Shown piece after piece: positions 231 to 59,685 of a DNA stretch of 64,000 nt. The notes beneath the pieces were generated by a model. The model saw nothing but the letters and a program-made list of their open reading frames with translations. It was not told the origin of the DNA and ran no database searches. Numbering within the stretch: the stretch's first letter is position 1; each line of letters begins with the position of its first letter. The translations under genes were made by a program, and so were the position numbers. The stretch covers positions 3,348,001 through 3,412,000 of the forward strand of contig CAKKNE010000004.1 in NCBI GenBank assembly GCA_918797485.1, written 5' to 3'. This DNA comes from Pelagomonas calceolata (Eukaryota).

Positions 231-253
231 TTAGCGTACATAAAGACACTAGC
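231..253 (-). promoter_or_regulatory. CTAG-dyad upstream motif (variant)
   Basis: + strand TTAGCGTACATAAAGACACTAGC. Confidence 0.55.
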
Positions 254-410
254 AAAAATCTGTGAGAGCAAAAACAGGCTCTGTGGTCTGTTTCGCGTGC
301 GCAGGCGCGCTTTGATACTTCAGCCTTACGGAGACTGTTGCTGCCGTATTTGTCTCGCTGCCCACAACTTCCCCGGCTCCAATCGGTGCGGTACTCGCGA
401 CAATAAGCCA

Positions 411-1577
411 ATGGCACGGCTGCTCCTCACATGGCTCGCCTGTCACGCGACCGCCCTGGTCCCACCGACAAAGCACAAACAGCGCCTGACCGTCGCGCAC
501 AACGTCGCCTCGGCGAAGCCGAACGCCAGGAACGCAAAATATGTGGACCAGCTCTTAGACGTGGCGGCGGGAACCGATCGGGGCGTCAGGGCCAAGGAGG
601 GCACGCGCAACATCATCGACGGGCTGATCGCGCGGCTTGAGCGCTCGTACAAGGGCACGGACGCGTCCGAGACGCCCGAGTGGCTGTATAGGGACAGCGA
701 GGTCGTCTACGTCGGCCAGCGGTCGAGCAAGCGCGCGAATGCCGCGGGCGGAAGATTTCGGGGCCGCGTCGGGCGGCTGCTCTTCCGGACGACGGCATTG
801 TACCAGCACATCCAGCGGGACGGCGAAAGTCTAAGAGCGGTCAACGCGAACCGCTTCCGCTTCCTCGGCTTGCTGCCGGGCTGCGCCGTGCTCCGGGGCT
901 CCGCCGAGAAGGAGAATGACTTGGAAGCGCTCTCGGCGAAGTTCGACCGGAAACTCTCCGAGAACACGCTCCGCGCGTCGTTCGAGCGGCCGAAAATCGC
1001 CTTCGGGCCTCTGGTCTGTGAGGCCGGGCCCGCGTCGGTGGTGCGCCTCGACACGACGTACCTCGACGACCGCGTTTGGCCACCGTGTGGAACACAAGTT
1101 GGTGATCGCGATCGAGGAGGAGCACTCTTTTGTGGGATGTTGACCTCGCAAGGACTGATATGCGACAGGAAGCTCCGTACGGGGCACACCGAGATCGAGA
1201 GACGCGACAGACACGCGCGCGCCTCCCGCCCCCGCTCCTGCCGATCTTGTTACGCGCAGGTCCGCATCTCGCGCGGCGGCTCGTCGGGCACGCCGTTCGT
1301 CTTCCGCGCGTGTTCGGACACGGACACGCGCAAGGACGCCTGGAAGCGCGTCGCCGAGGCAACGCCGGTCTCCGCGAAAACGGCGGGTGTCGGCGTCGGC
1401 GCGCTGGCCGCTGTTGCAGCGGGCACCGCCGCGCGAATCGGGACCAAGAACATCGCATTTGCGCCTGCTGTGGTCCTCGCCCTTGCTTCCGCCAAGCTCT
1501 TGACGAGCACTGGAGGAATAGTAGTCACACGCGACCCCGCGGTGGCGTCGTACAAGAATGCGGGCAAGGGGGGCTGA
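411..1577 (+). CDS. PAP/fibrillin-family plastid lipid-associated protein (one intron, 1074-1259)
   Basis: Signal peptide MARLLLTWLACHATAL; AAGTDRGV N-terminal motif. Removing the GT..AG intron restores LDTTYLDDR|VRISRG, typical of fibrillins. Confidence 0.75.
   Translation: MARLLLTWLACHATALVPPTKHKQRLTVAHNVASAKPNARNAKYVDQLLDVAAGTDRGVRAKEGTRNIIDGLIARLERSYKGTDASETPEWLYRDSEVVYVGQRSSKRANAAGGRFRGRVGRLLFRTTALYQHIQRDGESLRAVNANRFRFLGLLPGCAVLRGSAEKENDLEALSAKFDRKLSENTLRASFERPKIAFGPLVCEAGPASVVRLDTTYLDDRVWPPCGTQVGDRDRGGALFCGMLTSQGLICDRKLRTGHTEIERRDRHARASRPRSCRSCYAQVRISRGGSSGTPFVFRACSDTDTRKDAWKRVAEATPVSAKTAGVGVGALAAVAAGTAARIGTKNIAFAPAVVLALASAKLLTSTGGIVVTRDPAVASYKNAGKGG
1074..1259 (+). other. 186-nt in-frame intron, probably a degenerate introner
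   Basis: Starts GTTTGG and ends GCGCAG. Its 5' part has CCGTGTGGAACACAA, resembling the introner TIR; no 3' TIR. Confidence 0.7.
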
Positions 1578-1690
1578 GTACTACACATTTGTCTGCTAAC
1601 CATCGAGTGTGCGCGATTCCACGAGCCGACGACGGACTTGACGACGGCGACGTACGTACAAAAAAAGACATGTGCCAGTGGCGGGTACAT

Positions 1691-2659
1691 TCACACATCC
1701 TTACACAGTTCCATCTGCTGCTCGATGGCCGCGGCGAGCGGCGCGACAGCCTCGCCGGGCAGGTCGTGCTTCGAGCAAAACGCCACCGCCACCGCCTCGG
1801 GCACGTCGCCCTCGCAGACGCGGATCGTGCCGACGCCGTCGACCGTCAGCTCGAAGAGCACGCACGAGGTCTCGCCGCGGTCCCCGGTGAGCGCCACGTG
1901 CGTTTCGGGAAAGAGCGGCACCGTCGACCGCGCGTTCTTCTCGTCGCGAAAAGATGGCCGCGCGAACGCGCAAAAAAACACGAGGCGGTCCTCGTCGGAC
2001 GCGTTGGCTAGTCCTCGATGATCAATGCGGTAGTCAAAGAGGAGCGCATCGCCCGCGTCGCACATCACGGCGACGCCGTCCTGCCTCAGGCGCTTCACGT
2101 CATTGGCTCGAGGGCGGTGACTGCCGAGCCGGAACTCCGTCGGGCCGTTCGCGGCGGTGAGTGGCTGCAGCGGCACGAATACCGTCAACGCGTTCGGCGA
2201 TTCGCTGTTCTCATGATCCCCGTCTTTATGCCAACGTTGGTGGTCTCCACCAGCGTTCGCTCTGGCCACCATGACGCCGCTGTACAATATGGCGCTGCCG
2301 CCGAGCGCCTCCGTTGCGACGTCGAGCACAGCAGTTCTCGTTTCGCGCAGGAGCGCGTCGAACGGCGCGGCGTCGCTGTTGAACCGCAGGTCGACGCGGC
2401 CGCCGTCGCGTTTGAGGTATTCGGCGAAATCTCGGCGATGGAGGCGCACCGCTGCGTGATGCGCTCCCGGCGCGGATGCGTCGAGGTCTCGTATGTTGTT
2501 TGTGATCGCTGCGTCTGAGCAAGCGAGTGCTGCTGCAGCCGCAGCTCTGCAGATAGCAATCGTTTCTTCCTTTACGGCTCCGGGCACGACTGCTACGCCT
2601 TGCTCAAGGAAGATGGAGGCTGCAGCCTGCTGGGTGGTGCCAATCAAGCTCGCAGCCAT
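1691..2659 (-). CDS. PhyH-family 2OG-Fe(II) dioxygenase with a short extra C-terminal domain
   Basis: QRWHKDG (HxD), NGPTEFRLGSH, GDALLFDYRIDHRG motifs. Confidence 0.8.
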   Translation of the reverse strand: MAASLIGTTQQAAASIFLEQGVAVVPGAVKEETIAICRAAAAAALACSDAAITNNIRDLDASAPGAHHAAVRLHRRDFAEYLKRDGGRVDLRFNSDAAPFDALLRETRTAVLDVATEALGGSAILYSGVMVARANAGGDHQRWHKDGDHENSESPNALTVFVPLQPLTAANGPTEFRLGSHRPRANDVKRLRQDGVAVMCDAGDALLFDYRIDHRGLANASDEDRLVFFCAFARPSFRDEKNARSTVPLFPETHVALTGDRGETSCVLFELTVDGVGTIRVCEGDVPEAVAVAFCSKHDLPGEAVAPLAAAIEQQMELCKDV

Positions 2660-3092
2660 ACTGGCGCAGCGATGGTGAACTTGCAGAGCTGTGCACGAGG
2701 GTCAATTTACCGGGCCGCACAGTGCGGGAGCTAAGCCTAGCTGTTTTTGGGCGCTGCAATTCGATGCAAACCCGACCAGTGGCGACGGACTTGCGCCTTT
2801 GCATCGGCGCGCGAGCAGCTACACTGTCGGCTGCGCCTCAGCATCGTGTGGCACAGCATCGCCGCATCGCTGCGCTGCGACTTTCGGCATCGCTGCGGGC
2901 ATCGCTGCGGCCAGTACCGATATTGCACTCGCTGCACACTGCTGCACCGCTGCGCAAACCGCTGCGCGAGCGCCGCGTCGAGGACTAAGCGCCGCACGGC
3001 GTCGCAGCGCTGCCACCTCATCGCTGTCGCATCGCTGGCGGACCGACAACGGCAACACATTGCATCACAGCACACTCACATAGTCTGACGCG

Positions 3093-3644: not shown

Positions 3645-3660
3645 TCCTATAACCCCGAAG

Positions 3661-4717: not shown

Positions 4718-4739
4718 GCTAGTGTCTCAGGCCGCTAGC
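4718..4739 (+). promoter_or_regulatory. CTAG-dyad upstream motif
   Basis: GCTAGTGTCTCAGGCCGCTAGC in a divergent intergenic region. Confidence 0.65.
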
Positions 4740-6435: not shown

Positions 6436-6486
6436 AGGCTGAGGCTAGTTACGTCGCAGGGCTCCCCGTACCCCTCCCGCTCCCCC
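6436..6486 (+). repeat. Dispersed repeat, possibly an element end; 48/51 identical to the reverse complement of 59695-59745
   Basis: AGGCTGAGGCTAGTTACGTCGCAGGG..CCCCGTACCCCTCCCGCTCCCCC shared by both loci. Confidence 0.85.
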
Positions 6487-11499: not shown

Positions 11500-11522
11500 G
11501 CCAGCGTCCGTATCACACTAGC
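11500..11522 (-). promoter_or_regulatory. CTAG-dyad upstream motif (degenerate)
   Basis: + strand GCCAGCGTCCGTATCACACTAGC. Confidence 0.45.
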
Positions 11523-16170: not shown

Positions 16171-16194
16171 GCTAGCGTCCTGTAAGCCACTAGC
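16171..16194 (-). promoter_or_regulatory. CTAG-dyad upstream motif
   Basis: + strand GCTAGCGTCCTGTAAGCCACTAGC, 190 bp before ATG 15981. Confidence 0.7.
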
Positions 16195-19110: not shown

Positions 19111-19245
19111 GTGTCTTACTCTTACTCCGTTACTCCGCGACGCGAGCCCGCGCTCCGCCGTGCGCGTGTGGCGTAATCGACTCCCAAATCGCCGCAGAAT
19201 TAGGTAGCTCGTCAGCCTGCACGCGAGCCGCGGCTTCGGCGGACC
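19111..19245 (-). pseudogene. Decayed duplicate of the 3' end of the Ldh_2 dehydrogenase gene (functional copy at 27111-27222)
   Basis: Reads EAAARVQADELPNSAAIWESIT versus EAAARVQADELPIPKAIWESIT, with several short duplications near the stop. Confidence 0.85.
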
Positions 19246-19403: not shown

Positions 19404-21556
19404 ATGGCCGCAGCGGTGCCCCAAAGGCAGACTCCGCTAAAAAAATGGATCTCTGATGGCTGTGTGTGCGTGAACACGGCCTCCGGCGGGAACGACGACG
19501 TGAACGCTGTACCGGTCGCATTCGTGGGCCTGGAGCTCCTCGCGCTGTGCCGCCGCGGCGGACAAACCCCCGCGTGGGACGAGCCGTCAGTCGCGCCGGA
19601 GGAAGTCTTCTTTAGCGTGCGACGGAGCGCGTTCGTGGCGGTGACGGCGCCGTCGACGCTGCGAGGTTGGGTCAGACCCGACGGCGAGAACTACGCCGAG
19701 GGCCGCGACTTCTTCGTCGTCTCCGCGCTTGTTGGAAGGCGGAGGCTGACGGCGAGCGAAATTTTGAGGAAGAAGACGACCGGGGCGCTGCGCTACGAAA
19801 GCATGGCGCGGCCGCCGCGTCCGCATCGCACGTCCGTCCGTCGACGTCACCCGCGCAGGTATTCATGTCGCCAGGGCTTCTCGGAGCGGTCGTCTTCGCC
19901 GATCGCCGGCGCCGCAGAAGAGCTGGGGCTGCTGCGACTTCGCCGGCCGAGTGGAAGGAGCTCGACGCGCAGGCCGTGGCCCTGTGCCGGCCTCGCTGGT
20001 CCGGCGAGACCAGGCTCGTCCCCGAGACGTTGATCGCGCTGAGCGCCTACGATGGCCCGCCGCGACCGGCCCGGGGCTCGGCGTTCCGAGCCGCGAGGGA
20101 TCTGCTCGCTCGACGCGTCCCGAAGCGCATCGACACGAAGCTGTCGATCGACCAGACGGACGAGCTCGTCGTGACCGCGGCGATCCTCGAGGCGCTGGCT
20201 GGCCGCGAGGAGCCCGACGCCGACCTGCTCCGCACGCTGAAGCCCGGCTTCGCGGACGTTGGTATCGAGCTCGGCGACGTGAGGCAGTTCGGCGACCTAC
20301 GGCTCACCGCGCGGAACGCGGTCTACGTGCACGTCGTCTCGGCCGTCCGCAACCTCCTGCGCGCTCCGCGTCTCTCGCGACCTATCCGGGCCAGCGAACG
20401 CATCGTGGACTGGATGCGGGCGCTCTCAAAGGCGCCGATCCTCGCGCCGGCCGTGCCGAAGCCCGCCAACAACGCGCGGCCTCTGGAGGCCGCGTTGAAA
20501 ATCGTCGCGGCGATGCTGGCGGCGAAGAACGGGCCGACGGCGGCGGCGGAGACTGCGCAGCGCCAGGAGGCGCATCTGCGGGGCGGCGGGCACGACGCCG
20601 CCGCGGACTTCATCCGGGCGCCGTCGACGAACCAGGCGTCCAAGGAATGCGAGCTCGTCGCGGCGGCGTCGATGGCTGTGTTGAAACGGCTACTCAAAGA
20701 CCGCGACGTGACTATTACGAGCGACGCGGGGTCTCAGACGATCGCGGGCGTCGCCCATCACTTCCACGCGTTCCGTATGCTCGCCGTCGTGCCCACGGAG
20801 GCTGCTCCAGCATGGAGGCTGTCGGCCTGGGCGAAACGAGCTGCGGCCGCGCAGGAGCGGGACTCGAGACGGCTGGCGCCGGGGCTCTTCGTCCCGGGCG
20901 ACGCGCCGCCGGGGGACCTCAGCGGTTACAACGCGTATGTTAGGGCAACGGCGGGCTCAGCGCATCAGGCCGTCGCCGACGGCCCGGACAAGTTCGGCGA
21001 GGCCTCCCGAAGCGTCGGCGAACGGTGGAAGGCGCTCGGGCCGATCGGGCAGCGGCCCTACGACGATGAAGCGCGGGACGAGAACGTGGATCGGCTCAAG
21101 GCCCGGGCTGATTACGCGCACGCTTCGGTCCTGTGGGGCGCGTCCCAGGGAGCGCTCCCGGAAGCGCGGGCGCTGATGGCCCAGCCCTACCGGCCGGGCC
21201 TGCCGCAGACCGTTACGGCTGGTGGGCTCTTCGCGTCCGCTTTTCCGATTGATAAAGGGACTATCGCTGCGCACTTCGCCGCGGCCGGCAAGTCGTGGGA
21301 CGAGCTAGATCCTACGGCGCGCCAGGCTTCAGAGGACGCGGCCTCCGATAGAAATAGGGACCTCGCCGCGGCGACGGCCCGGGCGACGCTCGTGCCGCAG
21401 CGGCTCGCCGACCTGGGCGCCGACCGTGACGCGTGGGCGGCCATCGCCGCGCGTGCAGGGGTCCCGGCCCTGCCCACGGCCGAGGCCGTGCGGGCGGAGC
21501 CGCGGTCTCTTCCCGACGCGCTCAACGAGTCGCTGATGCGACTGAATTCGATGTGA
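19404..21556 (+). CDS. Transposase-associated ORF: putative first catalytic Asp plus two HMG-box-like repeats (probable intron ending at 19858)
   Basis: TITSDAGS (D at 20723). HMG-like SGYNAYV...KFGEASRSVGERWKAL...RPYDDEA. Frame change bridged by a CGCAG acceptor; donor uncertain. Confidence 0.55.
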
Positions 21557-21989
21557 CTGCATGACCCGCAGACGCCCCCTACGGAGTGCTTCGATCGCTC
21601 TCGTCATCGCGTCGTTCGTGTCGACGTCCGTATATTTTCGCAAGCGCGCACAAGGCGCATCGTAATAACATGACCATCATCCCATTTGACTAGTACCATT
21701 CGGCCGGCGCGGACTCCGCGCTGAGGCACGCCGCTGCTGCGTCCAGCTAGAATCCGTACCGCCAGGCGTGAAGTGGCTCCGCGGCCTTCGGACGCGTCCC
21801 GAGAGACGCGTATTTTCACCTGAAAACCCGTCGCCTCTCACAAACCGATTTGCTCTGCCGCGCCTCCCCGCCGTCCTCCGTCTCACAGCCCTCCTCAGAA
21901 CTGCTTCAGAGCAAAGCCCCGGGCCAGGGCTTAGGCCATCTTGCTCTGGTGAGGCGGAGGCGGCGCCGCCCGGCGCCGTGCGCGCGCAA

Positions 21990-24421
21990 ATGCGGGATGC
22001 TCATCTGATCTGTCTGAAGGTCGCCGACCGGACCGGCACGCGCTTCGTCGCGTGCGCCAGCTCCGAGTGGACGGTGGCGCAGCTCAAGACGGTGCTGTGC
22101 GCGGCGTCGTTCGGACAGAAAGGCGAGCTCCGCCTGCGCCCTAGCGAGATCGCGCTCTCCCTCTGCTCGGTCCAACTCGCCGACCAGCGGAAGCTCTCGG
22201 ACTACACGTTGGTCCGCGACAGCGTGGTGAGCGTGCGCGTGATCGGCGCCGACGACCGCAAGCCGCCCGGCCACCTGCCGAAGTGGCTGAGCGACGTGGA
22301 GCTGTCTATTGTGAGCTGTCCCCTCGCGATGGTGGGCTGCAGCAGGAAGGCGGACGGCGAGCTCGTCGCCGAGGCCTTCCAGGAGGCGCTGGAAGCCTTC
22401 GGCCCCGTCGACCTCCAGCAAGTCGGCGCCTGGACCGTGGACGGCGCCGGCGACGGCAAGGTCGCGCGGCGCGTGCTAGCGGTCTTGCAGCGAGAGCTGT
22501 GTCGGAAGGCGCAGGGCGGCGACGAGGACGACGTGGACGACGAGGCGGAGCTGCTCCCACTACGCGTACGACGCCCCCCCATCGGCGGCGACTGCGTGCC
22601 CCATTCTGTGCACGACGCCATCAAAGGTTTGATGCGTCGCTATTTTGCGGCCTGTAAGCACTCCTCGGGCACGAAGTCGAACGATGTGATGAGCCGGTCG
22701 ATCGAGAGCGCCTGCGCGCTCCTGCGAAAGCTGTTGACGGAGGTCCAGCAGAGTGGCGTCGTCGTGGAGGACTGCGCCGAGACGCGCTGGGGCAGCCACG
22801 CCCGCGGAGCGCTTCAGTTGGCCGTCGCTGCGCCGTTCTTGGCCCGGGTCTTCAAAAGCCACTACGGCATCACGGGCGCCGAGGACCTGAAACAGCTAGA
22901 CTGGAAGGAGCGGCGGACCTACTTGATGCTCACGGAGGCGCCCCTACGCCTGACGCTATTTATTTTGGGCGAGCTCCACTACTACCTCTGCCAACCGCTA
23001 CTCGACTGGGCCAACGCGTGCTCGAGCCTGCGCTTCGACGAGATCGGTGCCAAGGTCCTGGAGCTCGGCGCCGCGTCGCTGATGACGCCGTCGGACCGGC
23101 GGGACTTCTTCCCGAACTCCTACGCGTTCGCCTGCGCGGCGGGCTTCGCCGCCTCCGACGTCGACGCCATCGTGACGAAGCACGTGGCCAACTTCATGAG
23201 GTACATGCTGAATCGACTGGACCTCGTGCGGCGGGCGCCGTACTGCTACACGTTCTTCTTCTCGCCCGAGCACCGCCAGCGCCTCGCCCAGTCCCTCGTC
23301 GCTGCGCTAGAGGCCTACGAGCGGGGCGAGGGCGACCTGGAGGCGTTCGAATTCTGCGACACGCTGGGCTTCCGCGAGTCCGACGAGCTGGCCGCGGCGC
23401 TGCGGGAGGTGGCCGCCGGAGGGCCCCTCCCGCGCGTGCTTCACAAGCGCGACTCTGCGTCCGAGCGGTGCACCCGACTCTCATCGGTCGATTTACACGT
23501 AGGCGCATCGCCGAGACCCACGGCGCGCTCACGTTCGGCCAGGCCGCCGCCGAAAACGACGTCCACATCTGCCAGCAGCTCCTCGAGATGAACTTTCGGA
23601 GGCCCTTCATGCTGTCGGTCATGTTCTTCCTCTTCGGCTCGCAGATGGATCTGACGGACGCCATCCTCGAGTCGTTTCCGGACGACTCGCCGGAGCTCCG
23701 GGGCCTTCGCGGCGAGAATCGCGGGCGCTTGGCCGACGAAAAGGCCGCGCGCGGTGCTGAGGACGCGGCGCGGCCCGACGTCGCCATCACGGAGGCGGAC
23801 GCCGCGGCCGTGTTAGATGCGACGACGTCCGCGAGGGACGACGCGACGAAGTCGAAGGACTGCGCCGCGGCGGCGATTGCGATCGCGGAGCGGCGCGGCA
23901 CCCGGGCCATCGCGGAGCTGCCGCCGCACACGGATGGCGCGTGCGCCAGCTGCGGCGACGCGGCGCCTCTGTTGGCGTCGTTCTGCCACGATACGGACTG
24001 CGACTCATACTGCGCGCTCTGCGCGCTTATCGCCGCGAGCCAGCCCGGCGTGGAGTTCTGCTGCCCGTCGTGCGAGACGGCGACGGACCGCTTGCTCGTC
24101 GATGTGGCCGCGCAAACGTTTGTGACAAAGCTCGAGGCTGCCAAGGCCGCGTCCGCGACGGCTCCGGCGAAAAAGAGGGCCCGAGAGAGGGGCGCGTGCT
24201 CCCACTGCCAGACCAACTACGGCGTTCACGTCACGGGCCACAACAAGAGCAAATGCCCGTTCGTCGCGCGCGACGGCGCGCCCGCGCCTGTGCGCCGCGT
24301 CAAGCGCCACCGCGTCGCCGCCGCGGACGACCAGTCACTCTTCTTCGGCGAGACGGCGTTCGGGGACTCGCGGGACGAGACCAAGGGGCCGGCCTTCACG
24401 TCGTGCCTCTGGGGCATGTGA
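21990..24421 (+). CDS. hAT-like DDE transposase core with N-terminal ubiquitin-like domain and C-terminal RING-like and zinc-knuckle motifs (GC-AG intron 23447-23502); true start uncertain
   Basis: WTVDGAG (D 22440), CVPH (22593), ETRWGS (22779), AAAEND (E 23552). Ubl WTVAQLK..LADQRKLSDY. CASC..CHDTDC..CALC..CPSC; CSHC..GHNKSKC. Confidence 0.65.
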
Positions 24422-26850: not shown

Positions 26851-27115
26851 TGTTCGCGCAGGCCTGGACTACCGTCTGACGTACACGCACCCCATCACGA
26901 AGAGGCGCATCGTGATCTGTCCGCAGGTCGTGCGCGACGAGCTGCGCGCGCGCGCCGCCGCGGCGCGTTCGGACGCGTAGCGCCCGACTATACGTCCCTC
27001 CCCCACATGGCCCCGGCTCAAACCTGGCGGCCCGTTCCCCCGGCTCTCCCCCCTGGTCTTTACGGACCCTTAATGAGTCACTCCGAATTAGCTAGGCCGC
27101 AGGCAGGCCCGTGTC

Positions 27116-29831: not shown

Positions 29832-29855
29832 GCTAGTGCCTTACAGGCCGCTAGC
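29832..29855 (+). promoter_or_regulatory. CTAG-dyad upstream motif
   Basis: GCTAGTGCCTTACAGGCCGCTAGC. Confidence 0.7.
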
Positions 29856-31211: not shown

Positions 31212-31234
31212 GCTAGTGTCTTACTACCGCTAGC
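31212..31234 (+). promoter_or_regulatory. CTAG-dyad upstream motif
   Basis: GCTAGTGTCTTACTACCGCTAGC. Confidence 0.7.
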
Positions 31235-37098: not shown

Positions 37099-37335
37099 TC
37101 CTCCCTTGTGTGTGTAAGGACGGGAATCTATGCTCTGTGTGACCAATGCGAACCCGGCGCGCTGCACGGACTTCCGCCGGGTGAAACAACACCCTATCGC
37201 CAATCCCTACAAGACACAGTGGCGAAGCGCTCGGGGTCCGTACTACCTGGGGGTGGGCACAATAAGTGACTCTCTCTCTCTCTCGGTGCGCACGGCCGAA
37301 CTACTTGCCGAACTTTCGACAAAATAGGTTACACA

Positions 37336-39412
37336 TCATACCGCTCCCTCATCAACAAACCCCTGCCCGTCGCACCACTCGCACTTCGATTCCTTCCCGA
37401 ACATGACGCGCACGCCCTTGCCATTGCAGAGCGGGCACGGCGCGGGCCCATTTTCCCCACCAATCATCACGGCGTCGATCTCTCGCGTGACTTGTAAAGA
37501 TCGGAGGTACGCGGACCACTGCTCGTCAACGTCCGTCCGCGCCTCGGCGGCCTCTCGTTCTGCCAAATCCTGCAGCATGTCGTCCCAGACAGCCTGACGG
37601 TCGTCGTCGCTGCTCACCGGCGCCGAGCCGGGGACCGGTGCGGAGGCCGCGTTTTTTAATACATCGGAATAATCCCCGACCCATTCGTCCGCCGCGTCGG
37701 CCACCGGCGCGCGCGCCGCCGCGTCGAGGAGGCGCACGGAGTCGCTCGTGATTTTGAACGTCGCGATCGCCAGCGACCTGTGTGTAGAATCGAGTTTCGC
37801 GGCGCCCCCACGCCATCGACGCGACATTTGAGTTCCACACGGTCGGCGACGGCATTCTTGCGAGAACGCGTCGTGCGAGCGCGTTCGCCTCCATCAAACT
37901 AGAGCAGCGATGCGTCGTCGTGACGCCAGCCTCCGCTTGGGCCGCCGTCGAGCCGAGACCTTCGTACGTAAAGCTCCGCGGCGGCGAGAACCGCACCTCG
38001 TAGTACTCTTCCGCTTCTGGCGGGTCCCAGGGATTTCTGGCGTAGCGGACGGTCTTGCGCCCGTCCCGCGGAGGAGTCGGCGCCGTCGCTTTTGCCCTCA
38101 TCTGCGCAAAGTCCTCGGCCGAGGGAAACTTGCCAAAGGTAGAGTCGCGCCGTCGGCGAATTTCGGCGAAGGGTTCGAGGCTCGTCGTGAGCAAGGTCTG
38201 GAGCGGAGGCTCGCCGATGCCTAATTTTGAAAGCAGCGACGATGTGACCGCCGAGAGGCCGAATCTCGCGCGGCGCAGCGCGCCCTTGGGGCCCACGCTG
38301 AGATCGAGAAGTGCGTGGCCCTCAGGTAGTCGAGCCGCCGCGTACGTCTCGAGCGCGCCCACGACGTCTCCGCTGGTCTTAATAAGGGCATCAGCAAGCG
38401 CAGCGGCGTCTTGCAAGGCGCTGTTGCAGCCCTGGCCCGAGGCACCGCCGGTCGAATGGGCCGCGTCTCCCAGCAGAGCCACGCGACCGTACGTGTACGC
38501 GTTGCAGCGGATCGTCGCTGCACGCGACGAGTTCTGCCGTACGAACTGCTCGCCGACCGCCGTCGTGTTGAACGCGGCGCCGATGAGCGCGAACGAGTCG
38601 GCGAGCAAAAGGCGCGCCGCGTCGGCGTCCGTGATCGTGCCAGGGTCCTCCTCACTGGGCCGCCAGCTCAGCAGGGCGCACGCGCCGTCCTTCGTCGGTT
38701 CCAGAAATGCGGCGAGCCCGCCTTTCCCCGGCACGAGATGGACCGCGTCCGGCGCGAGCGGCGCCGGCATACTCGAGAGCCGCACGACCTTGAGGGAGCC
38801 CGGCAGCTCGATGCGCTCGACGTCGAAGCCGGGGCACCTCTCGGCGATGGCACCGCGCGTCGCACTGTTCACGCCGTCGCAGCCCGCGACCAAATCGAAG
38901 GTCTCGCCGTCGACGGCGCCGGTCAGCGGGTCGACGTCCTCCACTTTTCGTTCAAAAATCATGCGCAGGCGGTCCGACGCGTGGCGCCGCTCCAGCTCGT
39001 CGAGCAGCGCGCCACACAAAGCCGTCTGGTAGATCAGGACCGACGGCTCTCGCGATGGGTCCGGCTTCCGCAGATCAATAGCGCCGAAGGGCAGGTGGAT
39101 CGTGAACCGGTCGCTGCCGAAGCCCGCGCCCTTCACTTGCTGCCAGAGCTCCTCGTCGCAGGACCGGATGGCCGTGCGGCCGCGCAGACCGAGGCCTAAC
39201 GCGTACGCACGGCCCTCGAGCGCGTCGCTGCTGCGCGGGTCGGCGCGGCCCTCGAAGATTTTTACGGTGCAGCCAGCATCCAGCAATCGATGCGCGAGGA
39301 GTAAGCCACTGGCACCTCCGCCTACGATGGCTGCACGTAAGCCCTGGAGAGGCGCGGTGCCGGGTGACAGGCCGCGGACGACTGCTAGCAAAAGGATGCA
39401 GTGGCAGCGCAT
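37336..39412 (-). CDS. FAD-dependent monooxygenase (kynurenine 3-monooxygenase-like) with a C-terminal extension ending in a DnaJ-type zinc finger (intron 37778-37850)
   Basis: IVGGGASG, GCDGVNSATR, LLGDAAH..GQGCNSALQD; last exon CPLCNGKG..CEWCDGQG. Confidence 0.75.
37778..37850 (-). mobile_element. Introner element, short and diverged; 73-nt intron with TSD (6/8)
   Basis: CCGTGTGGAACTCAAA...TCGATTCTACACACAG; GTCGCCGA versus GTCGCTGG; shares TCGCGTCGATGGCGTGGGG core with the 34864 copy. Confidence 0.82.
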
Positions 39413-39537: not shown

Positions 39538-39559
39538 GCTAGCGTCGCAAGCCTCTAGC
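39538..39559 (-). promoter_or_regulatory. CTAG-dyad upstream motif (degenerate)
   Basis: + strand GCTAGCGTCGCAAGCCTCTAGC. Confidence 0.5.
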
Positions 39560-41961: not shown

Positions 41962-41985
41962 GCTAGTGTCTTACTGGACGCTAGC
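41962..41985 (+). promoter_or_regulatory. CTAG-dyad upstream motif
   Basis: GCTAGTGTCTTACTGGACGCTAGC. Confidence 0.7.
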
Positions 41986-43011: not shown

Positions 43012-43127
43012 GAGACGATATGTTTTCGCTAGTGTGTCGATGTTACGGTGCTAGGACTAGTGGGCGGAGCCCCTGGGGGGGAGACACCGCGCGTCGCCGA
43101 TTCAAGCAGAACGCCTCGGCAAACCCC

Positions 43128-45420: not shown

Positions 45421-46234
45421 TCATTTCCCTCCCAGGTGCTTTGCCGCTCGAGCCCTTTGCGTGCTGTGGCCGGTGCGCATCCACGCGCAGCCGCCGTGGA
45501 GGGGCGAGCACCCGCTCCGGGGCTTGTACTCGCCGATGGACCCCCGCTCGAACTGCGCGTCCGGGAGAACGGCGGGACAGGACGGGTCGAACATGCAGGG
45601 CATCGGCCGGCCGTCGAAGGGGTTGATCGCTTTCTTCGTCTGCGGGCACGCGAGGACGTCGCGAATGTCGGCACGACCCGTCGCGCGGACTGCGGCCACA
45701 TTAAAAAAGGTCGAGCCCCGCGTCGGCACGAGGAACGCGCAGCGCGAGAAGAGGTGGTTCTCCACGAGCGCCTCGAGCGCCGGGTCGTCGACGCGGGCCT
45801 CGACGATCGACACGTTGTCCGCCTTCGCGAGGGCGATGAGATCTCGCTTCAACCACGCCGAGTGACCATCGGAACCAATGAGTAGACCGCCGTCGTGCCG
45901 CGCGACCGCTTCTCTCAGGCGGGGCCACACCTGTGTGGAAATCAACCAGTGCGTCGGGTGCCCGACAATTCTTCACTAAGTCATTTCTCGGCGATGACGC
46001 GGCCTCCTGGCTCAATCGAGCGGCGAGGAACCGGCATCGCCACGCCATCGAGCAAGCGTCGCATCGATGGCGTGGAGGACGACGCGACGATTCAACGCGA
46101 ACGCGCCGTAAAAGTTTGATTTCCACACAGGGCCCCACATCGCCGGCGCGCCAGTCCGGGCCCTTCTTGCGCAGGTGCACGCCGACGCCGCAGCCCTCCG
46201 ACCGCGCGAGCGCCGCATCGACCGCCTTCCTCAC
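45421..46234 (-). pseudogene. 5'-truncated fucosyltransferase-like (NodZ/GT23-type) gene with an introner intron
   Basis: VGVHLR and LFSRCAFLVPTRGSTF motifs; no ATG, in-frame stop just upstream. Confidence 0.6.
45931..46138 (-). mobile_element. Introner element, long type; 208-nt intron, perfect 15-bp TIRs, 8-bp TSD (7/8)
   Basis: CTGTGTGGAAATCAA at 45931 and TTGATTTCCACACAG ending at 46130; GTGGGGCC versus GTGTGGCC. Confidence 0.92.
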
Positions 46235-46242: not shown

Positions 46243-46800
46243 ATGCACGGGTTCACAACTAGACGAAAATACCCGGACTTCCACCTCATCCACGTGCTGC
46301 ACGGCTTCTGGTGGCACTACGGGTCCTTGGTGCGGCCGGACCTCGAGGCGTACCCGGAGGACATCTTCCGGAGTCTCTGCGAGCCCTGGCTTGACCCCTA
46401 CGAGTACAACGAGCACGTCCACACGTCCATGTTCAAGGAGTGCCGCCACGGGGTGGGTCATGGCGTCTTCTACCCGCTCGCGGCGCGCCAGGACCCCTCT
46501 CTGGTCAGCGTGCGAAGGACGCGCCTCGAGGGCACGTTCCCCGTGAGCGACGCGACCTACTGCGAGGGGCTTAGGATTTGCAACGGCGCGCCCAACGAGG
46601 CGGGGCAGACGGCGGTGTACGGGGCCAATTCCAAGTACGGGCAACGCGTCGCGACGGCCAAGTCCTGCTGCTACGGGGGTCTCCGCCACTCCATCAAGCT
46701 CTACTCGCCGCGCATGCCGACGGACTGGAATTGCCGGGGCCAGACGGACCCCGCGATCCAGGCGGCGGTCAAGGCCAACAGGCCCATTAAGATTGTGTAA
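46243..46800 (+). CDS. Hypothetical Cys/His-rich protein (CxHGxGHG motif), probably 5'-truncated
   Basis: ECRHGVGHG, CCYGG; host-like codon usage; no upstream intergenic space. Confidence 0.55.
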   Translation: MHGFTTRRKYPDFHLIHVLHGFWWHYGSLVRPDLEAYPEDIFRSLCEPWLDPYEYNEHVHTSMFKECRHGVGHGVFYPLAARQDPSLVSVRRTRLEGTFPVSDATYCEGLRICNGAPNEAGQTAVYGANSKYGQRVATAKSCCYGGLRHSIKLYSPRMPTDWNCRGQTDPAIQAAVKANRPIKIV

Positions 46801-46810
46801 ATACTATACC

Positions 46811-47395
46811 TCAAGAATTATTCCACGCGTCGCGCCACGCAGCCACCCGCGCAAGCGTCGCCTCGAGGTCGGCCTCGCTCTCATTCCTCAACTCCACGAC
46901 GACCTCCGCGGCGTAGGCCTCTCTGGCTTCCTCGAGGACGACCTGCATGATCTCGCACTGCAGATTTTCCTGGAGCTTCGGCTCGGGGTAGCCGCGCGCC
47001 GTGAGGCGATCATATAAAGTCTCGGTGCCGACGCGCAGCACGAGCACCAAATCGAACCAGCGCTCGGGGAAGAGCTCGCACGCGTGGTAGTCGACTACAA
47101 ACCCGCCCCGGCCCAGGTCCGGCTCCATCGCGTCCAGCACGCGGTCCTCGTCGAGCACTTGGCACTGCCGCGCCTCGTCGAACTCCTCGAACGCTTTCAA
47201 TGACTTCGCGAGCTCCGAGACGCCGAGCCGCTGCAGGCCGAGGCGCGCCGCGATGGCCTCGGCGGCGCGCGTCTTGCCGACGCCCGGCGTGCCCGTCACG
47301 AGGATGTTCGGTCGTGCGGCTCCTTTCCGGTCGCGCTTCTGGGCCGGTGCCGTTTCCTCGGACTTGCGCTTGCGGGGTTCCGTGAGCTCGGCCAT
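46811..47395 (-). CDS. AK6: Adenylate kinase 6 / Fap7 / hCINAP
   Basis: PNILVTGTPGVGKT, VVDYHACELFPERWFDLV, LYDRLTARGY, ENLQCEIMQV. Confidence 0.95.
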   Translation of the reverse strand: MAELTEPRKRKSEETAPAQKRDRKGAARPNILVTGTPGVGKTRAAEAIAARLGLQRLGVSELAKSLKAFEEFDEARQCQVLDEDRVLDAMEPDLGRGGFVVDYHACELFPERWFDLVLVLRVGTETLYDRLTARGYPEPKLQENLQCEIMQVVLEEAREAYAAEVVVELRNESEADLEATLARVAAWRDAWNNS

Positions 47396-47927
47396 ATTTC
47401 CACGGTGTGCGCGTGATGTGCCGATGAAGCTGTTGTGATGCAGGAGTGTTCTACGGTGTGCCGAGGCGATGGCGTTCGGCGCGCGTGATGCAGCGATGAA
47501 ACTGCTGTGATGAAGCAGTGCTGCTGACAGAGGCTAATGAGACTCACGTCTGAATTCTGCTGCCACGGCCAGCTGTGCACTGTCAACGAGTGCGTACGGC
47601 GGTGGCAATAACCAGAATAAGACGTGTATTACGTCGTTTTTTGCGTGTGCATGCAATGCTCCTACTGTCGAGGTATAAGGTATAAGGTACCATACCGATA
47701 CCTTATACCCGGCGGCCGGGACCAGCGGCCCAGCGACGACTCCCCGGAGACTCCCTGGCAAGGGGACGGAAGCCTACGGAGGCTTGTAGGACGAAACCGC
47801 AAGCTCCTTCCTTGCCACCCACGCCCAACCTGGGCCGGCCGCTGTACCATTTCGCTGAGGTCGAATCACATCGAGCAGCACGCATGGGACGCTGAGCAGC
47901 AGCACATAGACGACACACGCCGGTGTT

Positions 47928-49433
47928 ATGGGCCGCGGCGGGCAGAAAGCGGCGCCGGGCAACCCCCTCACCAGCAGGCGTTGGTCCAAGGGCGAGGACC
48001 TGCGCCCGCACACGCCGCAGGAGTATGATGATGACCTCAACAACCTCTGGGTCGTGCATGGAAGGCGCTACGACCTGGCGCCCTTCCGGGACGTCCATCC
48101 GGGCGGCGCGACGGCGCTCGATTTGTGCCGGGGCAGCGACGCGACGCGGCTCTTCGAGCAGTTCCACGTCATGAACGACAAGCACCGCAAGGCGCTCAAG
48201 AAGTATGAAGTGCGTGAGTACAAGCGGTCCGAGAGCCCCCCCGGCGTCGAAGACACGCCTCCTAAGGACAGCGAGCGCAGCGCCTTCCACGAGGACCTGA
48301 AGGCGATGCTGCGACGGCACTTTCCGGATTTATATGATGGCCACAAGTGCACCTACCAGCACGCGGCGTGTCTCGGGGCGACCTTCGCGGCGTATGGTGT
48401 TGGATGGGTCGGGTGGTGGCGCGGCGAAGTACTGACAGGAGTGTTTTTGTTAGGACTGTGCGCCTGGCTCATCATGGCCAATTTAGCACATGACGGCTCG
48501 CACCACGCCGTGTCGCGCAAAGCCTGGATCAATGAGATTTCACTACTGACCTCGTCACCGTTACTCTACAGTTACGGAAGCTGGTACCAGCAGCACTGTG
48601 CGTCTCATCACTTAGAAACGAATGATCCGGATCTCGATGTCGACGTGCAGCACCACCCCTTCGCGCGGTGGGAGCGGAGCATGTGGAAGGACCATAACCT
48701 CACGGGTTGGATCAACCTATTGTGGCACTTCACGGCCTTCCTCGTGTCGACGGCGAACATGTCGCTCACGCACCCCTGGAAATTTGTGTTTGTTCCCTGG
48801 GTGAGAAGGCACCTAGGCTTGGAATTGCCACCCTTCTTCGGCGCCGACAACGTCGAATGGGCCGCGAAACAGAAGAAGGCCAACAAACACGCGCCCCACG
48901 AGCTAGCATTTTTCAGAGTGTCAGGAAGGATGCATAGAACAGGATTCTTCGACGGCTGGCGCGGGCTGCTGAGTGTGTTGGGGTTCGTTATGTCCGTGGC
49001 GTTCGTCACGGTGCCCTTCTTCCGCTTCGACACGATAGGAAGAAAACTACTGTTTGCGCTTGGGCCCTACGTCGTCACGTCGGCCTTCTTCTTCACGGTG
49101 ACCCAAATTTCGCATGTGCAGGCCGAGTGCCAGCGGCCCGACCCGACCAAAGACTTCTTCCAGCACCAGGCTCGCACGTCGCTGGACTACGGGTGCACGT
49201 CGGAGTTCTGGCGCTTCGCGACGGGCGGGTTGAATGTGCAAAGCATCCACCACGTCATGCCGGTCGTGAACTCGTGTCATTATGCCAAGTTGTACCCGGA
49301 GTTCTACGCGCTCTGCGAGAAGTACGACTGCGCGCCGGCGACGGAGCCCCACATTTTGAGTGCGGGCTACCGGCACCTGAAGCACGTCTACGACCTCGGC
49401 GAGCTGTACCGCGGGCCGGACTACTCCGACTAG
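47928..49433 (+). CDS. Cytochrome b5-fused front-end fatty acid desaturase
   Basis: HPGG; His boxes HDGSH, HCASHH, QSIHH. Confidence 0.9.
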   Translation: MGRGGQKAAPGNPLTSRRWSKGEDLRPHTPQEYDDDLNNLWVVHGRRYDLAPFRDVHPGGATALDLCRGSDATRLFEQFHVMNDKHRKALKKYEVREYKRSESPPGVEDTPPKDSERSAFHEDLKAMLRRHFPDLYDGHKCTYQHAACLGATFAAYGVGWVGWWRGEVLTGVFLLGLCAWLIMANLAHDGSHHAVSRKAWINEISLLTSSPLLYSYGSWYQQHCASHHLETNDPDLDVDVQHHPFARWERSMWKDHNLTGWINLLWHFTAFLVSTANMSLTHPWKFVFVPWVRRHLGLELPPFFGADNVEWAAKQKKANKHAPHELAFFRVSGRMHRTGFFDGWRGLLSVLGFVMSVAFVTVPFFRFDTIGRKLLFALGPYVVTSAFFFTVTQISHVQAECQRPDPTKDFFQHQARTSLDYGCTSEFWRFATGGLNVQSIHHVMPVVNSCHYAKLYPEFYALCEKYDCAPATEPHILSAGYRHLKHVYDLGELYRGPDYSD

Positions 49434-49749
49434 ATCGACTCTGTTATTATGCATAGTAATTATCGCATTGAATATACCTTCCTTTTCTACCTTCCCTTGG
49501 GGGCTCGGCGACGCCTCCGCCGCAGGAGGCGGGTTTTTCATGCCGATTTTGCTCAGCGAGCCCCTCACGCACTCACGTGGCGTCAGTACCGTCAGTGATC
49601 ACCTTTAATCGTGTTAACACGTCGCGGAGTCCACTCTTGGAGGGACTCTTCGCCGTCACACTCACACAGCACTAAAAAAAATTTGGCCTATTAGATCTGC
49701 CCGGGAGCACAACCGGCTCCTACTCGCGCAACCTCAACCACTTGTGGCT

Positions 49750-51250: not shown

Positions 51251-51273
51251 GCTAGCGTACAGTAAGACACTAG
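51251..51273 (-). promoter_or_regulatory. CTAG-dyad upstream motif
   Basis: + strand GCTAGCGTACAGTAAGACACTAG. Confidence 0.7.
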
Positions 51274-51460
51274 GAAGCAGCTGGCCGAGGGCTGGCCGCT
51301 TGGATTTCGCTGCCTTACGCTGCTCAATATACCCCTAAAGCAGTGCTCAGGCACTCGTTTGCCATCCGCCTCTCGCTGACAACACCTCGCTCGCACTCTG
51401 GCACGAATCAGCCGCGGGCCAGGATAGCCAGACCGGAGAGCTCGCAGCCTGAGCGGCGAA

Positions 51461-55986: not shown

Positions 55987-56138
55987 CGCTTTTTGGTTGC
56001 AGCAATGTGCTGCTCGGCGCTATGCAACAAAAGCTAGTCAGCGAAGCAATGCAGCGCGTTTCAGAGCGAATAATGCAAACTGTCTCGCAGTGTCGTTTGC
56101 AATGCCGCGTGTGTGGAGCACACCAGCCGCAAGTATTC

Positions 56139-56161
56139 CTAGTGCCTTACAGGCCGCTAGC
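56139..56161 (+). promoter_or_regulatory. CTAG-dyad upstream motif
   Basis: CTAGTGCCTTACAGGCCGCTAGC. Confidence 0.7.
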
Positions 56162-58149: not shown

Positions 58150-58585
58150 TTTTTCGCCTGCTTTGGCTAATATGCTGCGGACCCCCACCGCTCAAAGGGG
58201 GCAGCCGCGTCGCCGCACCCACAGCAGCGATGGACAGGGGCTCGTGACGCGCGGCCCGCACGCTGCAGCGCGTCTCGCGCGTCGCGGCCACGGCGTCACA
58301 ATCACAAGACGGCCGGCTCCCAAAATGTTGAAGGCAACAAAGGGGGACAAAGGGGGGTGATCTGCGCGCGCGGGGGCGGACCGCTCGCGCCGGTCATCGG
58401 TGTGGGCTGCGTTGTTGGAAGGCTCTACGCGGAACTCGGGGTGGTGTTAGGAAAGGCGCGGCTCTAGAGCGCGGCCCGCGCCCGTCACGCGACCACCAGG
58501 CCTACCACCTACCACCATTCGACCACCCGCCGATGACCCGGCGTAACTGTGCCATCATAGTAGGTACGTTACAAACTGGCGTTAG

Positions 58586-59278
58586 TTAGCCCGACCGCCG
58601 CGGGTCGGGCCGCCCGCGGACCGCGAACGAGACGTTGTTCTCGCGGTAGTCGTGGCCCGGCGGCGCCGACGCGACGACGCGCCGCGCGCCGGCGCGTTCG
58701 TTTTCCTCCGGGCCCCAGAGGAAGTCCAGCGTCGCCGCCGCCGCGTCGGCAGCATCGTCATCAGCGCCGGCCTCGAGCGTCGCCGCGCCGAGCGCCCGCA
58801 CGTCGAGGCGCGCCTCCTCCATCGTGTAGCTCGTAACAATAATTGGAATGGAGGTCCGCAGCAGCCCCATCAACGTCGGCCGCCACGAGTCGTAGCCCCA
58901 GAAGCCTGGGTGGAAGGCTATGACCACATCCGGCGCGGCCCGCCACACGCGCCTGTTGTCGACGTCGTACGCGCCCGCGTCGTGCGTCACGCGCACGCGG
59001 CCCCGGTACGCCCGCGCGGGGCGGTCGCGCACGTCGGGCCCCACGACCAAAACGTCGAGCGTCTGGACCTTGAGCGCGTCCGCGAGCAGGATCCACAGAT
59101 CATCATTTCCCTCAACGTGGGGCTGGCCGCCGATGGCATGCACCGTCAAGACCTTCTTTTTGAATCCGAGCTTCCTGATCGACGCCGCGGCCGTCGCGAC
59201 GAAGGACGGGTCCACCTTCTGCTTTGCGACGGCGCGCATGACGAGCTGCGCGAAGGACGGTTCGTCGTTGCTCGCCAT
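58586..59278 (-). CDS. MSS51/ZMYND15-like C-terminal domain protein
   Basis: LVVGPD, PDVVIAFHPGFWGYDSWRPTL, PIIVTSYT.EEA. Confidence 0.7.
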   Translation of the reverse strand: MASNDEPSFAQLVMRAVAKQKVDPSFVATAAASIRKLGFKKKVLTVHAIGGQPHVEGNDDLWILLADALKVQTLDVLVVGPDVRDRPARAYRGRVRVTHDAGAYDVDNRRVWRAAPDVVIAFHPGFWGYDSWRPTLMGLLRTSIPIIVTSYTMEEARLDVRALGAATLEAGADDDAADAAAATLDFLWGPEENERAGARRVVASAPPGHDYRENNVSFAVRGRPDPRRSG

Positions 59279-59280
59279 GG

Positions 59281-59448
59281 CTACGTCTGCCGGAACGCCG
59301 CGCCAACACCAATAACGCACGCCAAAAAGAGCGCCGCCGGGCCCGCGTGCCGCCCGCGCATCTGTAGCGCGGCCGCCGCGCCGCCGACCATGAAACCCGT
59401 CACTCCTCCGATGGCGCCCGCCTTCGCTTTGCGCTCCCACACGCCCAT
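59281..59448 (-). CDS. Romo1/Mgr2-like small mitochondrial membrane protein (55 aa)
   Basis: MGVWERKAKAGAIGGVTGFMVGG...PAALFLACVIGVGAAFR: two Gly-rich TMs with a family-like GxxFR end. Confidence 0.6.
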   Translation of the reverse strand: MGVWERKAKAGAIGGVTGFMVGGAAAALQMRGRHAGPAALFLACVIGVGAAFRQT

Positions 59449-59661
59449 TTGCTTTTGCTTTTGCTTGTGTCTGCCGCTGCAGCCAGCTCCTCGACACTGC
59501 ACAGAGTGGGTGTCTGCGGGCAAGTGGGCAGCAATGCTCGCGCGCTTCAGGCGTCAACAGCTGTGTGTTCGCACGGATCTCAGCGTGGATTATCTGCTTG
59601 AGATCACGCTTGATGAGATCACGCTTGATTACGCAAAAACGCCTGCAACGCAAATCGAGGG

Positions 59662-59685
59662 GCTAGCGTCCAGTAAGACACTAGC
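59662..59685 (-). promoter_or_regulatory. CTAG-dyad upstream motif
   Basis: + strand GCTAGCGTCCAGTAAGACACTAGC, ~210 bp before ATG 59448. Confidence 0.7.

What the first reader, a model, noticed from the sequence alone, without database searches (positions are those of the whole stretch)
231..59685. A long, oriented ~24-bp dyad motif (GCTAGTGTCTTACAGGCCGCTAGC) marks many gene 5' regions
Seen: about 16 copies, at 231, 4718, 4831, 7576, 11500, 16171, 17203, 28613, 29832, 31212, 39538, 41962, 43128, 51251, 56139 and 59662. All are intergenic and 5' of genes. I saw none in coding sequence, convergent gaps or the accessory blocks. Inverted GCTAG/CTAGC arms flank an asymmetric 12-15-nt spacer (TGTCTTAC conserved). 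Where only one gene starts nearby (7576, 16171, 29832, 31212, 43128, 59662) the motif is always in gene-sense orientation, about 140-260 bp upstream of the ATG. Inference: a lineage-specific general promoter or nucleosome-positioning element bound by a dimeric factor, unusually long and conserved for a eukaryotic core promoter. I do not recognise it as a described motif.
Basis: partly seen in the sequence, partly recalled or inferred. Interest (0 to 1): 0.85.

Follow-up and report, generated by a model that had tools for sequence, protein, structure and literature searches.

The report
Two-way promoter anchor in marine picoalgae
A roughly 25-letter DNA motif sits in either orientation about 200 letters upstream of many genes of a small marine alga, with a matching pattern of DNA composition at a fixed distance on both sides, so it is likely the landing site of an unknown protein that lays out promoters.

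Summary
The motif is real: all 16 copies are present and score far above chance. Consensus (TGCT)TGCTAGTGTCTTAC-[AGGC]-CGCTAGC; CTAG-to-CTAG spacing 16-20, mode 18. A capped scan of metagenome contigs gave 122 loci; the loci checked are pelagophyte-like. Of 98 copies with gene models: 0 in coding DNA, 67 in divergent or tandem gaps, 2 in convergent gaps, 29 at contig edges. No target-site duplications and no shared flanks, so it is not a MITE. New here: towards gene starts, a CG-poor, CA/TG-rich zone at 140-175 bp and a CG-rich zone at 178-210 bp lie at fixed distance from the motif on both sides. They follow the motif, not the ATG (0 of 2000 permutations). Best reading: an orientation-independent site for an abundant general regulatory factor, working like yeast Reb1/Abf1/Rap1 sites but longer (about 33 bits), probably thousands per genome. 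Binding, start sites and nucleosomes are inferred; no RNA or chromatin data were obtained. Not found in the papers searched.

The parts
230..253 (-). motif copy, CTAG spacing 18, right arm variant CTAA; gap before gene at 411
   Evidence: (40.7 bits)
4718..4739 (+). motif copy, spacing 16; divergent gap 4509/5000
   Evidence: 36.4 bits
4830..4854 (+). motif copy, spacing 19; second copy in the same divergent gap
   Evidence: 31.2 bits
7576..7599 (+). motif copy, spacing 18; tandem gap before Macro-domain gene 7742
   Evidence: (41.6 bits)
11500..11522 (-). motif copy, spacing 17, right arm variant CTGG; divergent gap FKBP-cyclophilin gene / kinase gene
   Evidence: (31.2 bits)
16171..16194 (-). 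motif copy, spacing 18; tandem gap, ends 5 bp past the upstream gene's stop
   Evidence: 38.0 bits
17203..17224 (-). motif copy, spacing 16; divergent gap 17089/17355
   Evidence: 33.9 bits
28612..28635 (+). motif copy, spacing 18; divergent gap Ldh_2 gene / PhyH gene
   Evidence: (30.7 bits)
29832..29855 (+). motif copy, spacing 18; tandem gap before dual-specificity phosphatase gene
   Evidence: (39.3 bits)
31212..31234 (+). motif copy, spacing 17; tandem gap before RSN1-type channel gene
   Evidence: (35.7 bits)
39538..39559 (-). motif copy, spacing 16; divergent gap FAD-binding gene / 2OG oxygenase gene
   Evidence: (31.8 bits)
41962..41985 (+). motif copy, spacing 18; divergent gap 41838/42121
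   Evidence: 37.1 bits
43128..43151 (+). motif copy, spacing 18; tandem gap before S41 peptidase gene
   Evidence: (30.8 bits)
51251..51274 (-). motif copy, spacing 18; divergent gap before TPR/ARM gene 51461
   Evidence: (36.5 bits)
56138..56161 (+). motif copy, spacing 18; divergent gap Asp/Asn-hydroxylase-like gene / MARVEL-like gene
   Evidence: (34.0 bits)
59662..59685 (-). motif copy, spacing 18; tandem gap before MSS51_C gene
   Evidence: (41.9 bits)

Best explanation
The motif is a two-box DNA element that lies between transcription units about 200 bp from gene starts in either orientation, and it is likely the binding site of one abundant, still unknown general regulatory factor of Pelagomonas-type pelagophytes that would organise promoters on both sides of it. 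Shown: two conserved boxes (TTGCTAGTGTCTTAC and CGCTAGC) with a variable linker; exclusion from coding DNA and near-exclusion from convergent gaps; no fixed orientation; a composition pattern at fixed distance towards gene starts on both sides (T-tract at 18-45 bp, CG-poor and CA/TG-rich zone at 140-175 bp, CG-rich zone at 178-210 bp from the centre). Inferred: a multi-domain or dimeric protein reads the two boxes in double-stranded DNA; it keeps the gap open and acts as a barrier that fixes the next nucleosome; the 140-175 bp zone is where transcription usually starts (pyrimidine-purine initiator-like words CACT, CAC, CAG), about one nucleosome length from the site; in tandem gaps it may also stop read-through from the upstream gene.
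For: Signal far above chance. 122 further loci with 121 distinct flank sets. Location of 98 copies: 0 coding (65% of bases coding), 32 divergent, 35 tandem, 2 convergent, 29 edge; of 30 copies not selected by the search pattern, 0 lie in convergent gaps that hold 23% of gap bases, p=3e-4. Median distance to the coding start 210 bp (divergent) and 225 bp (tandem). Conservation differs by position in the unselected window copies (CTAG boxes 15-16 of 16, linker 6-13 of 16), and linker columns show only weak dependence (5 of 21 pairs at p<0.05; commonest linker 42 seen, 35 expected), as for a protein site rather than copied subfamilies. Unselected CTAG pairs peak at spacing 18 (25 pairs; 9 at 17). 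Phased architecture: CG(178-207) minus CG(140-169) is positive in 53 vs 16 tracks on the motif's 3' side and 49 vs 16 on its 5' side (p about 1e-6 each), absent towards gene 3' ends (22 vs 20, p=0.6), repeated in 91 unclassified tracks not used to find it (58 vs 23, p=1.5e-5), and peaks at 180-200 bp in all four classes of ATG distance; ATG-anchored permutations give 0.29+-0.25 against 1.86 seen, 0 of 2000. L066 carries an extra gene with its own motif where the window has a motif-free convergent gap. Orthologues L029 and L077 carry it about 80 bp from the same conserved promoter block but in opposite orientations (hand count). Yeast precedent: Rap1 targets were defined by a site within 300 nt of the start site, effects were independent of site orientation, and the factors are modelled as nucleosome barriers (10.1101/331793, passages).
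Against: No RNA reads, start-site, chromatin or binding data were obtained, so 'start zone' and 'nucleosome' are readings of base composition only. No significant nucleosome-repeat periodicity: CG period 175 bp z=2.4, p=0.14; the strong period is about 85-95 bp, confined to the first 400 bp; no convincing 10-bp periodicity (2 of 12 tests at p about 0.03). About a quarter of called ATGs lie under 153 bp from the centre, too close for a start at 150-170 bp, and there the contrast is weak (ATG<140: 14 vs 9, p=0.16). In the window alone the contrast is marginal (15 vs 8, p=0.054). About half of unselected divergent gaps lack the motif (16 of 30), including gaps of housekeeping genes such as AK6 and an Arf GTPase, and no substitute motif was found. 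Some polarity remains: the T-tract is strongest 3' of the motif (TTT 96 vs AAA 32; other side 48 vs 47), distance to the upstream stop differs by orientation (176 vs 111 bp, p=0.03), and the window's 6 of 6 differs from the outside 14 of 35 (p=0.009). A 33-bit site cannot easily arise by point mutation, yet it is inverted or decayed between close orthologues, so a copying or inversion route is unexplained. Gene models are from my own simple model trained on the window (one training gene was out of frame).
Confidence: 0.65

Rival explanations
1. A tiny mobile element or solo transposon end that inserts into open promoter chromatin and has no host function; the phased composition would belong to the target site, not to the motif.
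For: High copy number and 33 bits of information call for a copying route; 7-bp imperfect inverted ends; inversion or replacement at one orthologous gap and decay at another; small repeats often lie next to it, and the start of repeat family A resembles the motif's right part.
Against: No target-site duplication at any tested offset, 152 copies; only 38 of 306 flanks share sequence with another locus, explained by overlaps, orthologues, short chance matches or small repeats that follow the upstream gene's strand rather than the motif's and also occur far from it; conservation is position-specific, not uniform decay; no clean empty site seen in the 3 orthologous gaps aligned; no internal, longer family member found.
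Confidence: 0.13
2. An oriented core-promoter element at a fixed distance from the start site, bound by a dimeric factor.
For: 6 of 6 sense in this window; T-tract stronger on the 3' side.
Against: 14 of 35 sense in outside tandem gaps, 32 of 63 pooled with window and edge copies; Pfam-confirmed antisense cases L067 and L075; flip between orthologues; the phased zone is equal on both sides.
Confidence: 0.05
3. Chiefly a boundary: a roadblock terminator or insulator that shields promoters from upstream transcription, with no role in placing starts.
For: In tandem gaps it lies nearer the upstream stop (median 126 bp) than the downstream start (225 bp); small repeats collect on its upstream-gene side; yeast factors promote roadblocks (PMC5052057, search listing only).
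Against: Common in divergent gaps with no upstream 3' end (14 of 30 occupied) and almost absent from convergent gaps; the phased signal points to gene starts only.
Confidence: 0.08
4. A structural signal in single-stranded DNA or RNA (hairpin or cruciform; a nicking, replication or recombination site).
For: A 7-bp stem with one G-T pair can be drawn; RNA fold median -10.4 kcal/mol on the top strand; the loop contains TTAC, which recalls rolling-circle nick sites (recalled, not tested).
Against: DNA fold is weak (-3.7 and -2.9 kcal/mol medians); no compensatory changes in 155 copies and the loop is conserved in sequence; either strand can face the gene; no Rfam match in the window; one per 4 kb is dense for origins (own knowledge).
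Confidence: 0.09

Closest known systems
Yeast general regulatory factor sites (Reb1, Abf1, Rap1)
   Same: Promoter-side location within about 300 nt of starts, orientation-independent effects and a barrier role for nucleosomes (10.1101/331793, passages); Abf1 reads a two-part site (recalled).
   Different: Different sequence (recalled consensus; no motif library on hand); longer and richer (about 25-31 bp, 33 bits); apparently one motif at up to half of divergent gaps; binding protein unknown.
Long two-part animal sites: REST RE1, ZNF143/THAP11, CTCF, CENP-B box (all recalled, not from a call, except the 17-bp CENP-B box mentioned in PMC11267843)
   Same: 20-30 bp, two conserved boxes, tolerated spacer variants, thousands of copies.
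   Different: No sequence likeness that I can recall; unrelated lineage; here an imperfect dyad of CTAG boxes in a genome with gaps of only 300-600 bp.
Oomycete core promoter INR+FPR and DPEP (PMC3599244, abstract)
   Same: A stramenopile promoter motif of 16-19 nt found at a minority of genes.
   Different: Those lie at or just after the start site and are core elements; this motif lies about 200 bp from ATGs and works in either orientation.
MITEs and the introner elements of pelagophytes (956 putative in P. calceolata, PMC9481584 supplement)
   Same: Short, many copies, inverted ends.
   Different: No target-site duplication, no internal family sequence, never inside genes; introner-like introns occur separately in this window.

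Membership tests
General regulatory factor site (Reb1/Abf1/Rap1 type) | lies in promoter-side intergenic DNA within a few hundred bases of starts | tested here: met
   (distance to ATG, not to mapped start sites)
General regulatory factor site (Reb1/Abf1/Rap1 type) | no fixed orientation to the gene | tested here: met
   14 of 35 sense
General regulatory factor site (Reb1/Abf1/Rap1 type) | found at many genes of unrelated function | tested here: met
   neighbours span kinases, isomerases, oxygenases, channels; 15 of 23 motif-side vs 6 of 16 other genes have a Pfam hit, p=0.11 (hand tally)
General regulatory factor site (Reb1/Abf1/Rap1 type) | bound by an abundant sequence-specific protein | not testable with these tools
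   needs pull-down or footprinting
General regulatory factor site (Reb1/Abf1/Rap1 type) | keeps a nucleosome-depleted region and positions flanking nucleosomes and start sites | tested here: inconclusive
   sequence proxy positive; nucleosome-repeat and 10-bp periodicity not significant; no chromatin or RNA data
General regulatory factor site (Reb1/Abf1/Rap1 type) | matches a known Reb1, Abf1 or Rap1 consensus | not tested
   no motif library available; no likeness by recall
Oriented core-promoter element (INR/FPR/DPEP type) | fixed orientation to the gene | tested here: not met
Oriented core-promoter element (INR/FPR/DPEP type) | at or within about 40 nt of the start site | not testable with these tools
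   no 5'-end data; median 210-225 bp from coding starts argues against
MITE / non-autonomous DNA transposon | target-site duplication | tested here: not met
   152 copies, observed equals shuffled
MITE / non-autonomous DNA transposon | shared internal or flanking family sequence | tested here: not met
   38 of 306 flanks with any homology, none as a fixed extension
MITE / non-autonomous DNA transposon | terminal inverted repeats | tested here: inconclusive
   7-bp imperfect dyad with a constant T/G mismatch
MITE / non-autonomous DNA transposon | clean empty sites in relatives | tested here: inconclusive
   3 orthologous gaps: one kept, one inverted or replaced, one decayed
Structured RNA or DNA hairpin signal | compensatory base changes in the stem | tested here: not met
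   0 two-sided changes in 155 copies; stem nearly invariant, so the test has little power
Structured RNA or DNA hairpin signal | match to a described RNA family | tested here: not met
   0 Rfam matches at gathering score in the window

The most novel reading that the evidence does not exclude
One pelagophyte protein with an unusually long, 30-bp site acts as a genome-wide ruler: bound at thousands of intergenic gaps, it sets transcription starts about one nucleosome length away on both sides. The site would have been spread by a copying process (for instance a domesticated transposase and its end sequence), and its built-in T-versus-C asymmetry (GCTAG-TG against GCTAG-CG) could let CG methylation switch binding.
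Probability: 0.2. Interest if true: 0.85.

Novelty: new variant of a known kind. Interest (0 to 1): 0.62.

Why it matters
Almost nothing is known about how promoters are built in pelagophytes, a cosmopolitan and abundant group of open-ocean picoalgae. A long, easily found motif at a large share of promoter gaps gives an anchor for mapping start sites and chromatin, a bait for finding a master promoter factor in stramenopiles, a part for two-way expression constructs, and a lineage marker in metagenomes (4 of 18 hits in prokaryote genome bins matched the full consensus; three of these contigs are mixed, with eukaryote-type pieces). It also poses a testable question: how a 33-bit site is gained, flipped and lost at thousands of places.

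Tried and rejected
No whole genome is held for the window, so there is no genome-wide scan; no RNA reads were laid, so start sites are unmapped. Viral contigs: 0 matches to the strict pattern; the loose pattern gave 120 capped hits, 0 with the full consensus. Prokaryote genomes: 18 hits in 596 billion bases; 14 are partial, chance-like matches and 4 match fully. Three of the 4 (L261, L265, L266) are eukaryote-type pieces joined to prokaryote DNA; the fourth (L267, 3.9 kb, GC 0.62-0.64) was not annotated. Relict spliced leader or splice acceptor: rejected, since orientation is free and the AG of TTACAG varies. Retroposon tail with (AAGC)n: at most 2 exact units, in 6 of 155 copies, no duplications. 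A shorter 13-14 spacing class: not supported, 5 pairs. A substitute motif in 34 motif-free promoter gaps: none. Nucleosome-repeat (175 bp) and 10-bp periodicities: not significant. My first test of convergent-gap depletion was circular because loci were chosen around the motif; redone on unselected copies. The AK6 synonymous-site figure (9 of 12) came from a wrong frame and is discarded. Conservation of the boxes between L004 and L086 is not evidence of selection, as both were fetched by the pattern. Earlier findings of this scan: three look-ups, nothing returned.
Full report
Setting. The window is 64% GC, gene-dense and eukaryotic. Its adenylate kinase 6 has Pelagophyceae sp., Aureococcus and Chrysophaeum as best named relatives. 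GC content and introner-like introns fit Pelagomonas as described in PMC9481584 (passages); the genus is my inference. No whole genome was available.

Observation. All 16 copies are present. A two-box matrix scores them 30.7-41.9 bits, leave-one-out 24.7-40.2, against no hit above 20 bits in 20 simulated windows. The consensus is (TGCT)TGCTAGTGTCTTAC, a linker (mostly AGGC), then CGCTAGC; information about 33 bits from window copies alone. Among 155 copies the CTAG-to-CTAG spacing is 18 in 132, 19 in 9, 17 in 8, 16 in 3, 20 in 3 (biased by the search pattern); among pairs not selected by the pattern the peak is still 18. The dyad is imperfect by rule: T faces G in 150 of 155 copies.

Spread. 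I dropped 3 redundant loci; the remaining 119 (251,937 bases) hold 139 copies at 18 bits or more, 120 of them matching the search pattern. Two loci were checked by protein search and both are pelagophyte-like; the L026 enzyme is 90% identical to the cluster holding the P. calceolata protein, which means a sister lineage or a paralogue. L066 is orthologous to window 46638-49435 at 88-91% identity. Whether Aureococcus or other genera carry the motif was not tested. Viral contigs gave no full match. Of 18 prokaryote-genome hits, 4 match fully; 3 were shown to be eukaryote-type pieces in mixed contigs. With 16,667 genes (PMC9481584) and 0.13-0.35 copies per gap, a genome would hold roughly 2,000-6,000 copies; this is an extrapolation.

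Position. I trained a simple coding model on the window and ran it on loci of 700 bases or more; 41 copies on shorter loci were not classified. Of 98 classified copies, 0 are coding (65% of bases are), 32 divergent, 35 tandem, 2 convergent, 29 at contig edges. Using only copies not selected by the pattern, 0 of 30 fall in convergent gaps that hold 23% of gap bases (p=3e-4); 14 of 30 unselected divergent gaps are occupied. The two convergent cases (L011, L017) sit beside repeat-like sequence and may be true exceptions. Median distance to the coding start is 210 bp in divergent and 225 bp in tandem gaps; to the upstream stop 126 bp.

Orientation. The window's 6 of 6 is real but does not generalise: 14 sense and 21 antisense in outside tandem gaps, 12 and 10 at edge copies facing a gene start, 32 of 63 pooled. 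To check strand calls I scanned the 40 segments flanking the 21 antisense copies: 14 had Pfam hits on the called strand, and in L067 and L075 both neighbours are confirmed. L066 has an extra gene with an antisense motif where the window has an empty convergent gap. Orthologues L029 and L077 carry the motif in opposite orientations about 80 bp from one conserved block; at the next gap L077 has it intact and L029 a likely decayed form; L004 and L086 keep it in place. Fourfold sites differ at 18-27% in three such gene pairs. Against full symmetry: the window differs from the outside sample (p=0.009), the T-tract is stronger 3' of the motif, and antisense copies lie nearer the upstream stop (p=0.03).

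Not a MITE. No target-site duplication at fixed or free offsets in 152 copies. Only 38 of 306 flanks share sequence with another locus. Three small repeat families near the motif follow the upstream gene's strand, lie at varying distance and also occur far from the motif. Conservation is uneven along the motif and linker columns are only weakly linked. No compensatory stem changes, weak DNA folding and no Rfam match argue against a hairpin signal.

Phased architecture. Reading outward from the motif centre towards a gene start, CG drops at 140-175 bp and jumps at 180-200 bp (139 tracks), with CA/TG and words such as CACT and CAC enriched in the trough, CGCG in the peak and T-runs at 18-45 bp. 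The windows were chosen after seeing the profile. The contrast holds on both sides separately (53 vs 16; 49 vs 16), is absent towards 3' ends (22 vs 20), repeats in 91 unclassified tracks not used (58 vs 23, p=1.5e-5) and stays at 180-200 bp whatever the ATG distance. Re-anchoring on the ATG with shuffled distances gives 0.29+-0.25 against 1.86, 0 of 2000. A CG period of 85-95 bp is strong within 400 bp (z=8.1), but a 175-bp nucleosome repeat is not significant (p=0.14), nor is a 10-bp period. The trough could be an initiator zone or a stretch where methyl-CG has decayed to TG/CA; DNMT5 linker methylation is reported for Aureococcus (PMC9998398, passage). I favour the initiator reading but cannot separate them.

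Mechanism. Most likely a general regulatory factor reads both boxes on duplex DNA, holds the short intergenic gap open and fixes a nucleosome and the start zone about 150-170 bp away on whichever side a gene begins. Location, free orientation and the phased pattern are shown; binding, open chromatin and start positions are inferred from the yeast precedent (10.1101/331793, passages). The factor is unknown; the P. calceolata annotation table (cut when stored) lists Myb, AP2 and C2H2 proteins and returned no CENP-B or BED-type term. How new copies arise is unexplained; a transposon origin followed by domestication is not excluded.

Literature. Nine searches listed no description of this motif; the sequence strings occurred in 15 papers, all on unrelated subjects by title. 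In PMC9481584 the main text has no 'motif' or 'promoter', nor do three text supplements; a picture-only supplement could not be read and the gene table is cut. Seen: PMC9481584 passages and supplement passages; 10.1101/331793, PMC9998398 and PMC11267843 passages; PMC3599244 abstract; PMC5052057 listing only. The library omits most subscription papers and cannot read motif logos, so novelty is probable, not proven.

Verdict. A real, abundant and apparently undescribed promoter-gap motif. It works like a yeast general regulatory factor site but is longer, with a symmetric sequence footprint reaching 200 bp out. New variant of a known kind; interest 0.62.

Noticed in passing
window 43041-43104; also L001, L014, L031, L048 (3 copies), L072, L080, L102, L119: Small repeat (family A, about 64 bp, begins TG and ends CA, GC-rich hairpin) lying just 3' of stop codons on the gene's strand; its first 14 bases resemble the right part of the motif.
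   Followed up: partly
window 6436-6486 and 59695-59748; L122: Second small repeat (family C) in the same kind of place, 3' of genes and on their strand.
   Followed up: partly
L006:722-783; L011, L014, L058, L096, L102: Third small repeat (family B) between the motif and the upstream gene; in L011 it is part of a longer element with telomere-like TTAGGG runs and a (GA)n stretch also seen at window 37240-37281.
   Followed up: partly
window 19171-19242 and 27145-27216: Two-copy 72-bp repeat, 83% identical; both copies are preceded by GTGTCTTACTC, a piece like the motif's left box (19110, 27111).
   Followed up: no
window about 27444-27497, 27940-28124, 34864-34937, 37778-37842, 45931-46135: Introner-like introns with inverted ends, with homologous copies in several loci.
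   Followed up: no
window 19404-27000: Motif-free block of ORFs with no Pfam hit; the ORF at 21990 gives only weak leads (score 0.75) to ZBED1/DUF659 hAT-transposase-like clusters. Possibly transposon-derived.
   Followed up: partly
L261:1850-4100, L265:1-1700, L266:7100-9082: Contigs of prokaryote genome bins carry eukaryote-type, motif-bearing pieces joined to bacterial or archaeal genes: assembly chimeras.
   Followed up: yes
L066:2653-3114: An extra small gene with a signal-peptide-like start, absent from the orthologous window gap 46800-46811; no Pfam hit for the scanned part.
   Followed up: partly
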